From Octopus sinensis (Eukaryota): a DNA stretch of 64,000 nucleotides. Below, piece after piece: positions 12,731 to 61,410 of the stretch. The stretch's first letter is position 1; each line of letters starts with the position of its first letter. The stretch covers positions 372,001-436,000 of the forward strand of contig NC_043022.1 in assembly GCF_006345805.1 (NCBI RefSeq), in the 5' to 3' direction. The notes under the pieces were generated by a model, which had not been told where the DNA came from, made no database searches, and was given only the letters and a program-made list of their open reading frames with translations. Both the position numbers and the translations under genes were made by a program.

Positions 12731-13575
12731 CAATATGTTACATTACTCGGTAGTCAAGATAAAACTCTGAGTTTCAGATGCCGAAGTGGAAATCCACAAC
12801 ACCATCTCTTCGGTTATCTGGCTATTTTCCTGCAGAAGTTTCTTAGAGTAAAAATCATTTGATGGGATCGGTATATTTTTCATAGAATAATCTATGTGAT
12901 ATGCGTCCATATTAGATTCTTTTGTTTGTGAGAGTCCTCAACCGATGTTAGGCGATAATCCCAAAAAGGTCGTATTAGCTCTTAGTTGAGAATAACGTCG
13001 TCCGGGAGGTGATTTATTGATAAAATGGTAAGATAACAAAAGAAAGAAAGAGACCTCAATATTATGTAAATAGAGGAAATTTATCTATACAATATGTTAC
13101 ATTACTCGGTAGTCAAGATAAAACTCTGAGTTTCAGATGCCGAAGTGGAAATCCACAACACCATCTCTTCGGTTATCTGGCTATTTCTTTCTTTTGTTAT
13201 CTTACCGTTTTATCAATAAATCACCTCCCGGACGACGTTATTCTCAACTAAGAGCTAATACGACCTTTTTGGGATTATCGCCTAACATCGGTTGAGGACT
13301 CTCACAAACAAAAGAATCTAATATGGACGCATATCACATAGATTATTCTATGAAAAATATACCGATCCCATCAAAGGATTTTTACTCTAAGAAACTTCTG
13401 CAGAAAATAGCCAGATAACCGAAGAGATGGTGTTGTGGATTTCCACTTCGGCATCTGAAACTCAGAGTTTTATCTTGACTACCGAGTAATGTAACATATT
13501 GTATAGATAAATTTCCTCTATTTACATAATATTGAGGTCTCTTTCTTTCTTTTGTTATCTTACCGTTTTATCAAT
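12731..13575. mobile_element. Non-coding Penelope pLTR/retrozyme-like element: ~359-nt unit in tandem and inverted copies, within (TA)n
   Basis: 12731-12824 recurs at 13090-13183. 13184-13575 is the reverse complement of the unit, with its own 36-nt terminal direct repeat. (TA)n lies on both flanks. Confidence 0.85.
13408..13481 (+). ncRNA. Type I hammerhead ribozyme-like motif (also on the minus strand at 12751-12824 and 13110-13183)
   Basis: TAGCCAGATAA-CCGAAGA-[GATG..GTGG/CCAC..CATC]-T-GAAA-CT-CAG-AG-TT-TTATCTTGACTA. Stems I, II and III all pair. The core has U4C plus one extra nucleotide, and the triplet is GUU. Confidence 0.65.
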
Positions 13576-13734
13576 ATATATATATATATATTATATATAT
13601 ATATATATTATATATATATATATATATATATATATATTATAATAATAATATGAGGGAATATTATTCCAAACTTACAGGGAAAAATTCAATTTAGAAATAC
13701 TAAATCGAATTTCACAAAATATAATATATATATA

Positions 13735-13951
13735 TATATATAAATTAGAAAAAAACCACCTTTTATCAATTCAATAATGAAAAATTAAAATGTATATATA
13801 CGTTTTACTTATTATTTTCCACATTACTTAATCATCGTTATATGTTTTATCTTATATTTAATCTTTCTATAATATGTAGTTTTCTAGATGGTGTAATTTA
13901 ATTTTTCATTATTGAATTGATAAAAGGTGTTTTTTTCTAATTTATATATAT
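13735..13951. repeat. Inverted repeat (about 55-bp arms) between TA tracts, probable Penelope-like end
   Basis: aaattagaaaaaaaccaccttttatcaattcaataatgaaaaattaaa versus its reverse complement at about 13897-13951. Confidence 0.75.
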
Positions 13952-15937
13952 CATAATTTAAGAGTTGTAAAATATATTGAAATATATTTAGCATAATGCA
14001 AGCATTATCCAACTTAGAAGTGACACATGTTAGGAAGAGATGATGGATATGTTTATTATATCAATAGTAGACACTTTAGGCAGGGCTAAATGGACTTCTT
14101 TCTTACTCACTTTCATTTTCTTCTCCTTTTCTCAGAATTGGTTGTGACATACATATAAGACAGTTTCTTGTAAATGTCAAGGCAATAGGATACTACTTTT
14201 GTATTCTCTCACTCTCTCTCTCTTTCTCTCCCTGTCTCTCTCTCTCTCTCACTCTGTCACACACACACACAAAACAAAAAACAAAAAACATAACATTTAA
14301 TTTTGGAACAGTGGTTCTCAAAGCACATAAAGCTATAAATAATGGTTTTAATCTTTGGCACAAGGCTGGTACTTATTTTGTTGACCCCAAAAGGATGAAA
14401 GGCAAAGTCAACCTCAATGGAATTTGAACTCGGAATGTACAGACAGGGGGATCACTGCTGAGCATTTTGCCTGAAATGCTAACAATTCTGCCATCTTGCT
14501 GCATCACATAAAGCTACAAATATCAGCAAGTAAATATCCCTTAAGCACAGAAAAAGCCAAAGGCTACAGGAAATATGGATTCAGGTCCCACAGACACCCT
14601 TTGAAGTTTTCTATCTAAAAGGATTTTTAAACACAATATTTACTTATTATTTATAGTTTTCCCTCTTTCAAGGAATTATTCCACATTCTCTCAAAGATTT
14701 ATAAAAGAAAAATTTCTAATGGTGTCCACAACATAACAGTCAATCCATTTCAGTAAAGGAGACAACTCAAAGATATTTCAGCCTTATTAGGCCTCCTCAG
14801 CAAAACATACATACTAATATACTTACCAAAGTAGTGACAACAAAACCACTTAGTACATGAGCAACAATATTGTACACTAGAAGCATATCTAACTCTTGAG
14901 TATTTAAACTGGTTATATAAGCCAGATCTGGCCTATCACACCTATCCTACACACCTGTTTCTAAAACTAGACAGTAATAGTATTGAAACCACAAAGCTAC
15001 AAAACAATACATGATTAATTCAAAACAACGTGGACAAATAAGGATTACATTTGACAGAATAATCTGAATTCTAAGCAGTTTGAAGAAATAACTTGTTGAG
15101 CTTTAATTACTTGCAGACGTCTTCATGATGAGAAAACAATAGTTAAGTTGATGTTGATGTATTTAATGTAGAAGTGAGCATTAAATATTTGATTAGAAAT
15201 AATTACCCTGTAAAGAAACTAAGTGGTGTCATGTTGTCTCTGACATGACAAACATCAGGACCTTGCATTTGTTGAGACATACAGTCATTCAATATTTCTC
15301 AAATTCCAGAAAAAAATATTCTGGGTTCCATGAGTGAAGACATTACATTTAATAAAAATTTATTTTATAAAACAAATGCTATTCACAGTGTTACTCTTTT
15401 CAAAATGATAAGATATTGTATTTCATCTTTGTATTTGGTTTGCAAAATTCTTCATATAATTCATGCGTTGAAATATTTTGGTGATCCTTGGGAGGGTCAT
15501 TATACCACTAATAGACATATACACTGGTTCTGTTTCACTTTTTTATAATAACCCTGACATTAACCTTTCCCTGATTATATTTCTGTTGACATCAAAAGTT
15601 TTGGCTCAATTAATTTTGAAAATAATAAAGAATTTTAAAAAATAACTTTGTCATTATTAAGCTGTTGTTTGAAACATAAATTAGTCTGAAATTTCAATGG
15701 AAAGTTTTTAATTAAGAGCATTTTGGAGCAGGGAGTTTGTGTCATAGATCCAGGGGCAGTTTGTGGTGGGTTGATATCAAAGGGGTTAAAATGTGACAGT
15801 AGGTTAGCAAGAGTACTTTAGTCTATCTTGCCTGCTACAGAAAAATCTTTCTATTGTCAGTAACAAGAAAGAAAAACAATTGTGATAAGAAAACAACCCA
15901 GACAAAAATCGTTTAGAAGTTTAACAAATCTTGACAA

Positions 15938-59445: not shown

Positions 59446-59447
59446 TA

Positions 59448-59695
59448 TTGGGTTGGTGCATAATTATTGCGGCTTTTTACAACAAATTTTATTCAACAAA
59501 AACAATAACAATATTTAACAAAAACAACTTTAAATGATGCTCTCACCGTCTGCCAAGCAAATGGGAAGCAGTAATTGAAGTGGATGGTGAATATGCTCCG
59601 GAATAATCATTTAAAGATGTTTTTGTTAAATATTGTTATGGTTTTTGTTGAATAAAATTTGTTGAAAAACGCTGCAATAAATATGCACAACCCAA
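59448..59695 (+). mobile_element. mariner-derived MITE with TA target duplication
   Basis: About 90-bp inverted arms ttgggttggtgcataattattgc / gcaataaatatgcacaacccaa. The interior encodes LPSKWEAVIEVDGEY, a mariner transposase C-terminus. Confidence 0.85.
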
Positions 59696-59740
59696 TATAT
59701 ATATATATAAATATATATATATATATATATATATATATAT

Positions 59741-61410
59741 GAAAAACAAGTAAAAAATAGAAAATGCTAAAATAATTTTATAGTGAACATTTCAGTACCG
59801 GTTTCGGTCATTTGAGACCTTTTCAACTGTAACGATTAAATAATTAAATTTAGAAAAATTAGAAGAAAAGTTTTTTTAAAAGAATATTTCTATAGTAGTG
59901 TTCAGATTTAAGTGGCATTCTGCCTTTCTCTGACTCCCTTGTTTGCACTTGTGTGTTCGAGGTAGTTGTGAGTTCTTGGTAGGGTAGTAGAGGGAAGGCT
60001 GGTGAGGAAAGGGGGGTGGGAGAATCTGGGAGTGCCCTGATGGTCGTATTTTGAATGGTCAGTGGCGGCTGGCAGTCTCAGTTCAATTCAGAGAATATTT
60101 ATATTGACAGGCTTGTTTATATAATTAGCGTAGGTGTTATACTAAAAAACATTAGTGACAAACTTAAGGGGTAGGGGGTGGAGAAAAGAAGAAGAAGAAG
60201 AAGAAGAAGAAGAAGGAGAAGGAGAAGGAGAAGATGACGATGATGGTGATGGTGGTGATGATATATGACGACGATGATGATGATAACGATGATGATGAAG
60301 AGAAGAAGAAGAGAAGAAGAAGAAGGAAGGAGGAGAAGGAGAGATGGTGGTGATGATGGTGGCGATGATGATGATGCCGATGGGTGTAAATATAGCTATG
60401 AAGGGGCTGATTAGTAATGGATTCTATGGAGTGTAGTATTTGTGTGTATATATATTTTTTTTTCTTTTATTCTAAAGTTGAGGTATATTATGTTTTGTCG
60501 TAGACCCGTTAAGAGTGGCTTGTATTTTGTAATAAAGAGATTTTCTTTACTTATTCGTTGTCTCGAGGTTGTATCGTCCCTAAATTGGTAGAGGGGGAAA
60601 ATTCTGAAGTTTGGTGTTTTTTTTTGGCGCAAGTATCTATGTGTTGGCTAAAAGCTATTTTTCTGTTTTGGGGAATTTTTATCTGGGATCTGTGCAGGCC
60701 ATTCGTTTACGCAAACCATTTTTTGTTTGGCCTATGTACTGCTCTTGACACCCGGAGCAGGTTAGTGAGTATATTAGGTTCTCCGAAGCACATATGAAGT
60801 TGCTTTTCACTGTAAAACGTTGTCCCTGTTTGAAGGAGAACTCAGAACCCTCGATTAGATAGTCGCATATCCCGCAATTGGGTCTTCCACATTTTTTTAC
60901 TGTCGGCTTCTGTGTTGAAGAGTGAATTCGGGCTTGTGTAAGGAGACTTTTCATGGATCTAGGCTGTCTTTTGCTTTTTATGATCGTGTGTGTTTGGAGG
61001 ATTGTGTTCATTCTGTGGTCTTTTTTTAGGAGGAGGGTATGTTGTGGAGGATGGTGTCGAAGGCTTCGTTATTGAGAGGGTTGTGTGTGGAGATGTATGG
61101 TAAGGCTTTTGGTTGTAAGTTTTTCTTTGATTTGGGATGTCTCAGTTCCTTGATGTTAAGTTGAAGGGCACGTTGAATGCATTTGTCAATAAGTGAAGGT
61201 GGATAGTTCCTGGTGATTAGGGTATCTTTTAGTTCTTGTAGTCGTGTGTCTCTGGTGTTTGCGTTAGAGACTATAGTGCATATCCTTTTTGCTAGATTGA
61301 AGGGGATATTCATCCTGGTGTGTCTGGGGTGGCATGAATTGAATGGAAGATATTGCTTAGAGTCTGTAGGCTTATAGTATATGTCTGTTTCTATTATATT
61401 ATTAGCTTTC
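59741..61410 (-). mobile_element. 5'-truncated Penelope-like retroelement (Neptune-type) within (TA)n: RT thumb, Cys-rich linker, GIY-YIG endonuclease, 3' pLTR
   Basis: TDIYYKPTDSKQYLPFNSCHP; CGRPNCGIC; NLIYSLTCSGCQEQYIGQT; KENLFITKYKPLL. Frameshifted, with (TA)n on both flanks. Confidence 0.93.
59789..59833 (-). ncRNA. Minimal hammerhead ribozyme variant (U3-A8) in the Penelope pLTR
   Basis: GTTACAG-TTGAAAA-GGTC-TCAAAT-GACC-GAA-ACCGGT-A-CTGAAAT, on the same strand as the element ORF. Confidence 0.75.

What the first reader, a model, noticed from the sequence alone, without database searches (positions are those of the whole stretch)
12751..59833. Several unrelated elements carry non-canonical hammerhead cores
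Seen: at least five sequence-unrelated elements carry hammerhead-like motifs. The cores are CCGAAGA (13408), CTGAAGA+G (about 16955), CCGATGA+A (31874), CCGATGA+T (32253/33315) and TTGAAAA (59789), and there is a half motif at 46471. The U4C change recurs three times and a single extra nucleotide beside stem II recurs four times. Stem III is repeatedly a short palindrome (ACGT, ACAGCTGT, ACCGGT, ACAATTGT). Known: minimal Penelope-associated hammerheads have short, often palindromic stem III and cleave as dimers. Inference: recurrence across families argues for a tolerated lineage-specific variant that strict CUGANGA searches would miss, at very high genomic density.
Basis: partly seen in the sequence, partly recalled or inferred. 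Interest (0 to 1): 0.75.

Follow-up and report, generated by a model that had tools for sequence, protein, structure and literature searches.

The report
Penelope retroelement hammerheads with C4 core
The motifs are the tail ends of six abundant repeat families, three of them tied here to Penelope-type jumping genes, each carrying a hammerhead-shaped RNA; in three families whole lineages have C in place of a normally fixed core U, which likely gives a slowed self-cutter that the elements can afford because they are likely copied from uncut RNA.

Summary
The motifs are real: 6 descriptor hits against 0.14 in shuffles. They sit in 3' tails of six repeat families (A-F). A and D are tied to Hydra-type Penelope endonucleases and E to a Neptune/Nematis-type element. 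B, C and F have no linked ORF here.

Copy decay is rejected for A, C, D and E. C4 marks subfamilies (A 34 of 41 copies; C 20 of 41; D 14 of 25), and E is fixed for U3-A8. B and F revert to the canonical U4. With one stem III, the genome holds 23,171 U4 and 12,176 C4 matches; purines at position 4 are at background. In A, C and an extra tandem family G, C4 appears to be the younger state (unrooted trees).

The extra nucleotide, palindromic stem III, U-U closure and U3-A8 are published. U4C is known from a viroid and some search descriptors, but I did not find it described for Penelope elements; two key papers were not held. Copy ends show no pile-up at the cut site, and cleavage is untested. 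This scan has noted C4 Penelope hammerheads before, in this and other genomes. Verdict: new variant of a known kind.

The parts
12730..13575 (.). Family A insertion: head-to-head fold-back of a 359-nt rearranged unit (1.3 units on -, 1.1 units on +) between (TA)n tracts; tail of a Hydra-type Penelope-like element
   Evidence: about 3,300 family sites; endonuclease tail upstream in L027
12757..12819 (-). A hammerhead copy 1: C4 core CCGAAGA, extra U before GAAA, stem III ACUC-A-GAGU, N17=U at 12763
13116..13178 (-). A hammerhead copy 2, in tandem with copy 1 at 359 nt (a layout that could form a dimer)
13413..13475 (+). A hammerhead copy 3, on the inverted arm
16869..17123 (.). Family B fold-back of two old copies (79% alike); motifs at -16965..16920 and +17027..17072; family core canonical CUGAAGA plus inserted G; both window arms decayed
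31839..32011 (+). Family C short copy ending in (TA)n; hammerhead 31874-31908, C4 core, inserted A, stem III ACGU, N17 at 31904
32253..32331 (-). Family D hammerhead copy 1: C4 core, long stem II, stem III ACAGCUGU, N17=A; 3' tail of a Hydra-type element
33315..33393 (-). Family D hammerhead copy 2; same insertion repeated by a local tandem duplication of about 1.06 kb, so not an independent element
46321..46649 (.). Family F fold-back, 5'-truncated inside the hammerhead; only the 3' half survives (-46487..46466); complete family copies have a canonical U4 core
59740..61412 (-). Family E: 5'-truncated Penelope-like element with broken RT C-terminus and GIY-YIG endonuclease (about 61412-60515), 3' UTR and (TA)n end
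59793..59829 (-). E hammerhead with covarying U3-A8 core UUGAAAA, stem III ACCGGU, N17=A at 59796, 56 nt before the element end

Best explanation
The six motifs are minimal type I hammerhead folds in the 3' tails of six repeat families that are, or likely derive from, Penelope-like retroelements, and the C4 core is carried by whole subfamilies, where it likely gives a slowed, dimer- or protein-dependent ribozyme that the elements tolerate because they are likely copied from uncut RNA. Shown here: the motifs, their family-wide or subfamily-wide cores, the link of A, D and E to Penelope-type proteins, the fold-back and (TA)n layout, and the restriction of position 4 to pyrimidines. Inferred: two copies pair through the palindromic stem III to build the active core; U4 changed to C independently in the source copies of A, C and G (D unresolved) and those lineages went on amplifying; reverse transcription starts 30-110 nt downstream of the intact motif, so inserted copies keep it whole. 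Cleavage itself was not tested.
For: Window excess over shuffles. Genome counts with stem III ACGT: U4 23,171 (control 1,730), C4 12,176 (control 1,646), A/G at position 4 2,937 (control 3,136). Family A: 46 sites picked by the 3' half only; 41 keep a core, 34 C4 and 7 U4. On the tree position 4 needs 2 changes against 6.7 shuffled; a 31-copy C4 clade (96/94) has a median end branch of 0.012 against 0.047 for U4 copies. Family C: 20 C4 and 21 U4 in the first 9.4 Mb of C1, with linked diagnostic sites (19 of 20 against 1 of 21 at one column); 6 changes against 19.2 shuffled; U4 clade median end branch 0.062, most divergent C4 clade 0.019. CpG decay at a neighbouring site is 3 of 42, too low to make half the copies U4. 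Family G: five C4 arrays 1.1-3.0% apart, four U4 arrays 2.0-13.3% apart. E: RT with DKG motif and GIY-YIG (Pfam E 0.0008, under the cut-off). D: CxCX5C, CxxC and CxH motifs, as defined for Hydra elements. Stem III palindromes self-pair in cofolding, -7.4 to -11.1 kcal/mol for A, D, E and -1.7 for C. Literature: unprocessed RNA is the main template of a Penelope-like element in vitro and its hammerhead is protein-assisted (PMC11167929); U4C lowers activity in vitro but supports viroid infectivity (PMC3088659).
Against: No sign of cleavage in the DNA. In A only 2 independent copies of about 3,300 end at N17, and none of 65 listed sites does. In C, 3 of 30 listed loci begin just after N17 (total not counted). 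Constancy of the C motif between C4 subfamilies (0 of 26 sites differ, flanks 14-29% apart depending on alignment) is weak once pattern-fixed sites are removed: P 0.012-0.13 for 13 free sites. Trees are unrooted, bootstraps for A and C had not settled, and age is read from end-branch length. D is unresolved. U to C is a transition, so the lack of purine families is partly expected without selection. B, C, F and G were not linked to an ORF. Minimum-energy folds of single A, C and D copies do not give the full hammerhead.
Confidence: 0.66

Rival explanations
1. The C4 motifs are catalytically dead. Cleavage is dispensable, U4C is a neutral change that drifted to fixation in source copies, and the fold persists by inertia or as a binding site for the element's protein.
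For: No pile-up of copy ends at the cut site. Catalytic mutants still insert in vitro (PMC11167929). Naiad elements thrive without canonical hammerheads (PMC8557442). A and D add further departures (3'-side U, U-U closure).
Against: The other core positions, stem II and stem III stay unchanged across C4 subfamilies of C (weak statistics). No purine-4 excess. The same change appears in at least four unrelated families. U4C is the variant known to keep enough activity in a viroid.
Confidence: 0.2
2. C4 is favoured: slower self-cutting keeps more full-length template, so U4C was selected repeatedly in the lineages that amplified most recently.
For: C4 lies on the shorter-branched side in A and C and marks the more uniform arrays in G. 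C4 creates a CpG, against the usual decay direction. In contigs laid on G, C4 was seen in two runs of organism A and not in two of organism B, a weak hint of recent spread.
Against: U4 matches still outnumber C4 about two to one. B, E and F never took C4, and E is young (96-99% identity). Family C holds both states in organism B as well. Three families are too few to separate selection from chance.
Confidence: 0.1
3. The variants are copy-specific decay or chance matches.
For: True for the window copies of B (both arms decayed) and F (truncated), and for small details of C and D.
Against: Family and subfamily tallies, trees and genome counts.
Confidence: 0.02

Closest known systems
Minimal type I hammerheads (min-HHR) of metazoan Penelope-like elements (Cervera and De la Pena 2014, PMC4209133)
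   Same: Position in the 3' repeat of the element, nucleotide between 9 and 10.1 (B, C), palindromic stem III, U3-A8 core (the same UUGAAAA as E is listed for Schistosoma mansoni family 4), inverted pairs, thousands of solo copies.
   Different: All 56 rows of their Fig. S3 have U at position 4, though their descriptor fixed the core; here A, C, D and G carry C4.
Hydra-clade Penelope-like elements and their hammerheads (Craig et al. 2021, PMC8557442, section 11 and File S2)
   Same: CxCX5C linker, CxxC and CxH endonuclease motifs (D; tail also in A), (TA)n targets, U on both sides of stem II, 8-9-nt palindromic stem III (Penelope-3_HM has the same ACUC-A-GAGU-U as family A), N17 often A or U.
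   Different: All 34 rows of File S2 have U4. A and D do not match the listed Hydra-1_oBim motif by eye.
Neptune/Nematis-type C-terminal GIY-YIG elements
   Same: Family E has DKG, C-terminal GIY-YIG with a CX4CxxC linker and a (TA)n end.
   Different: Clade not placed by phylogeny; U3-A8 core.
Metazoan non-LTR retrozymes (Cervera and de la Pena 2020, PMC7229834; Li et al. bioRxiv 10.64898/2026.07.22.740005)
   Same: Family G (540-559-nt tandem units, one hammerhead each) and the rearranged 359-nt unit of A in the window.
   Different: Minimal, not canonical, hammerheads; C4 subfamily; RNA circles not shown.
Natural U4C viroid hammerhead, and CYGANGA descriptors (PMC3088659; PMC13481778)
   Same: Same substitution; reported to cut activity in vitro yet allow infectivity; some searches already allow C at this position.
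   Different: A rare variant there; here fixed in subfamilies with thousands of genomic copies.

Membership tests
Minimal type I hammerhead | C3-G8 (or U3-A8), G5, A6, A9, G12-A14, A15.1-U16.1, H17 | tested here: met
   Family majorities in A-E; F in 3 complete copies
Minimal type I hammerhead | U at position 4 | tested here: not met
   C4 in A 34 of 41, C 20 of 41, D 14 of 25; met in B, E, F
Minimal type I hammerhead | Stems I and II flank the core; stem III self-complementary | tested here: met
   few compensatory changes in D, so support from covariation is thin; B's stem III is imperfect
Minimal type I hammerhead | G10.1-C11.1 closing pair | tested here: inconclusive
   Met in B, C, E, F; U-U or U-A in D; A has G-C plus a 3'-side U, or G-U with a bulge
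Minimal type I hammerhead | Site-specific self-cleavage after N17 | not testable with these tools
   No raw RNA reads were offered; copy ends show no pile-up at N17
Penelope-like element | RT plus C-terminal GIY-YIG upstream of the hammerhead | tested here: met
   E; D and A endonuclease only in direct line
Penelope-like element | ORF link for families B, C, F, G | tested here: inconclusive
   No linked ORF in the fetched loci; mostly short copies
Penelope-like element | Tandem or inverted 5'-truncated copies with a short tail, ending in (TA)n | tested here: met
Hydra clade (A, D) | CxCX5C linker, CxxC and CxH around E and N, no CCHH | tested here: met
   D all three motifs; A CxxC and CxH only, in one broken copy
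Hydra clade (A, D) | RWK and DKT motifs; placement in an RT tree | not tested
   No full RT was fetched
Neptune/Nematis clade (E) | CX2-5CxxC linker and DKG motif | tested here: met
   tree not built, so the two clades are not told apart
Non-LTR retrozyme (G; window unit of A) | Non-coding tandem units with one type I hammerhead each | tested here: met
Non-LTR retrozyme (G; window unit of A) | Expressed as circular RNA | not testable with these tools
   Only contigs of runs not on record as RNA

The most novel reading that the evidence does not exclude
U4C is a recurrent tuning mutation: unrelated Penelope-like families have independently switched a near-invariant catalytic-core U to C in their youngest amplifying lineages because a slower or protein-rescued hammerhead preserves full-length template, so C4 cores form a large hidden class (over ten thousand copies in this genome for one stem III alone) with matched U4/C4 sister subfamilies as natural experiments.
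Probability: 0.22. Interest if true: 0.68.

Novelty: new variant of a known kind. Interest (0 to 1): 0.4.

Why it matters
What the hammerhead does for Penelope-like elements is an open question. Sister subfamilies that differ at core position 4 (A, C, G) give ready-made pairs to test whether cleavage rate affects amplification. In practice, censuses built on CUGANGA miss about a third of the ACGT-stem motifs in this genome.

Tried and rejected
Rfam scan: swamped by microsatellite matches, no hammerhead among the 150 rows shown. Pfam found nothing on the window's broken E fragments or on three D endonuclease pieces.

A sharp 5' boundary of family A just upstream of the core, which suggested a start site or splice site, was an artefact of ranking by my query: 3'-anchored copies continue into the normal 3' UTR.

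A copy ending at the predicted cut site and joined to the unit start (L011/L012) looked like a cleavage footprint, but the genome holds only 2 such events, and a similar junction lies 16 nt further on in another copy. No matched control position was searched.

The nearest-30 samples overstate C4 (C: 28 of 30, against 20 of 41 unbiased). CpG decay as the source of U4 in family C was rejected. A Penelope endonuclease beside a C copy (L050) and beside D copies (L063/L069) belongs to separate insertions with their own tails.

Expression: no RNA holder listed; the runs laid were contigs and cannot show ends. Literature searches for C4 in Penelope hammerheads found none. Lunse et al. 2017 and Arkhipova et al. 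2017 were not held and may describe it.
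Full report
Setting. The window is G000:C26:372001-436000 of a 2.72-Gb animal genome, AT-rich and full of (TA)n tracts. I call it octopus-like from recalled repeat content; this was not tested. Position numbers and family letters A-G are mine; hammerhead numbering is standard and recalled.

Observation. A relaxed type I descriptor found 6 sites with stems of at least 3 bp against 0.14 in 100 shuffles, and 10 against 0.32 with a 2-bp stem II. 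These include A (three copies), C, D (two copies, one insertion duplicated locally) and E. B and F were read by eye and by family alignment. The six segments do not align with each other as DNA.

What the elements are. E is a 5'-truncated Penelope-like element: broken RT C-terminus and GIY-YIG at about 61412-60515, then a 3' UTR whose hammerhead lies 56 nt before a (TA)n end. Of 20 longer stretches fetched, several carry tandem and inverted partial copies, and one holds the RT N-terminus with DKG. Pfam GIY-YIG scored E 0.0008, under the cut-off. Upstream of D, copies lead into an endonuclease with CxCX5C, CxxC and CxH motifs, which define the Hydra clade (PMC8557442 section 11). One A copy has a related tail. 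B, C and F have the same layout (short tail, fold-back or (TA)n ends) but no linked ORF in the loci held. The genome search also showed family G, tandem 540-559-nt units with one hammerhead each.

Decay or family state. Nearest-30 tallies at position 4: A 30 C; C 28 C, 2 U; D 15 C, 13 U, 2 A; E 30 U with U3 in 30 and A8 in 29; B 27 U. Nearest copies are biased, so I resampled. For A, 40 stretches taken from the 65 distinct places listed gave 46 sites anchored on the 3' half; 5 were truncated, 34 were C4 and 7 U4. For C, all listed copies in the first 9.4 Mb of C1 gave 20 C4 and 21 U4, with linked diagnostic sites. For D, after dropping 5 duplicate rows, 14 of 25 were C4, 9 U4 and 2 other. With position 4 masked, trees need 2, 6 and 3 changes for A, C and D against 6.7, 19.2 and 7.3 shuffled. 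F's three complete copies are canonical.

Genome scale. With stem III fixed as ACGT and an 8-30-nt gap: U4 23,171 (reversed-pattern control 1,730), C4 12,176 (1,646), A or G 2,937 (3,136). These patterns do not test stems, but the listed rows are dominated by a few families. Family A has 1,646 forward matches, so about 3,300 sites; the reverse count is inflated by double listing.

Direction. In A the C4 clade has short end branches (median 0.012 against 0.047 for U4). In C the U4 clade has a median of 0.062 and the most divergent C4 clade 0.019. In G, C4 arrays differ by 1.1-3.0% and U4 arrays by 2.0-13.3%. I infer independent U-to-C changes followed by continued amplification. The trees are unrooted and D is unresolved. 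Contigs of public runs show both states of C in organisms coded A and B, and C4 of G only in A; contigs drop rare variants.

Function. Palindromic stems III pair between two copies in cofolding, as the dimer model needs. Nothing here shows cleavage. Copy ends do not gather at N17: 2 events in about 3,300 for A, 3 of 30 listed loci for C. The C motif is identical between C4 subfamilies whose flanks differ by 14-29%, but only 13 sites were free of my pattern (P 0.012-0.13). Frangieh et al. report that uncut RNA is the main template and that the hammerhead is protein-assisted. Perreault et al. state that U4C lowers activity in vitro yet supports viroid infectivity, and that U10.1-U11.1 is the best-tolerated mismatch. 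A slowed, partly dispensable ribozyme fits all of this best; a dead motif remains possible.

What is known. Cervera and De la Pena describe the inserted nucleotide, palindromic stem III and U3-A8; all 56 rows of their Fig. S3 have U4. Craig et al. File S2 shows the U-flanked stem II and long palindromes of A and D as normal for Hydra elements; all 34 rows have U4. Both used core-fixed descriptors. A 2026 virome study searched with CYGANGA. Nine searches found no account of C4 in Penelope hammerheads.

Papers seen. PMC4209133: main text parts 1-2 of 4, supplement parts 1-2 of 3. PMC8557442: passages, section 11, supplement part 2 of 59 and search hits. PMC3088659: passages and section 8. PMC11167929, PMC13481778, PMC7229834, PMC7761336, PMC3376415 and bioRxiv 2024.05.16.594327: passages. 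bioRxiv 2026.07.22.740005: part 1 of 5 and passages; its supplements are closed. Lunse et al. 2017 and Arkhipova et al. 2017: titles in reference lists only; either could already report C4.

Earlier notes. The scan has flagged C4 Penelope hammerheads in this genome and in others. These are unchecked and add no independent support; they pointed me to File S2.

Verdict. The feature is real, the family is known, and one departure, subfamily-fixed U4C at large scale and apparently in parallel, is not found in the papers I could read. New variant of a known kind; interest 0.4.

Noticed in passing
L184-L193 (e.g. G000:C1:5170500-5173000): Family G: tandem 540-559-nt non-coding units, each with a hammerhead (stem III ACGUACGU, U-U or A-A closing stem II), in U4 and C4 subfamilies; the best candidate for a cleavage test.
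   Followed up: partly
L188:1020-1560, runs X1 and X2: A-to-G is the commonest difference (12 and 16 places). It could be editing or other copies; not separable with contigs.
   Followed up: no
L011/L012 (G000:C27:10365237-10365301 and its duplicate): A family A copy ends within 1 nt of the predicted cut site and is joined to the start of another unit; one event.
   Followed up: yes
window 3400-6800: 51-bp tandem satellite of about 65 copies, 96-99% alike.
   Followed up: no
window 32130-34293: Local tandem duplication of about 1.06 kb that doubles the D insertion and a neighbouring repeat.
   Followed up: partly
window 13917 (+), 28526 (-), 46150 (+): Further weak descriptor hits with UUGANAA cores in AT-rich DNA; likely chance.
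   Followed up: no
G000 C12:18496616, C21:25342016, C22:21981982: Family C copies with the same deletion of stem III and the cut site between two AAA runs.
   Followed up: no
L194, L189 (2257, -): Two more unrelated C4 motifs with intact-looking stem II; families not examined.
   Followed up: no
window 51542-51952 (-): Open frame resembling a LINE reverse transcriptase fragment, judged by eye.
   Followed up: no
L152-L154: Complete family F hammerheads have a stem II loop of about 50 nt, longer than common descriptors allow.
   Followed up: partly
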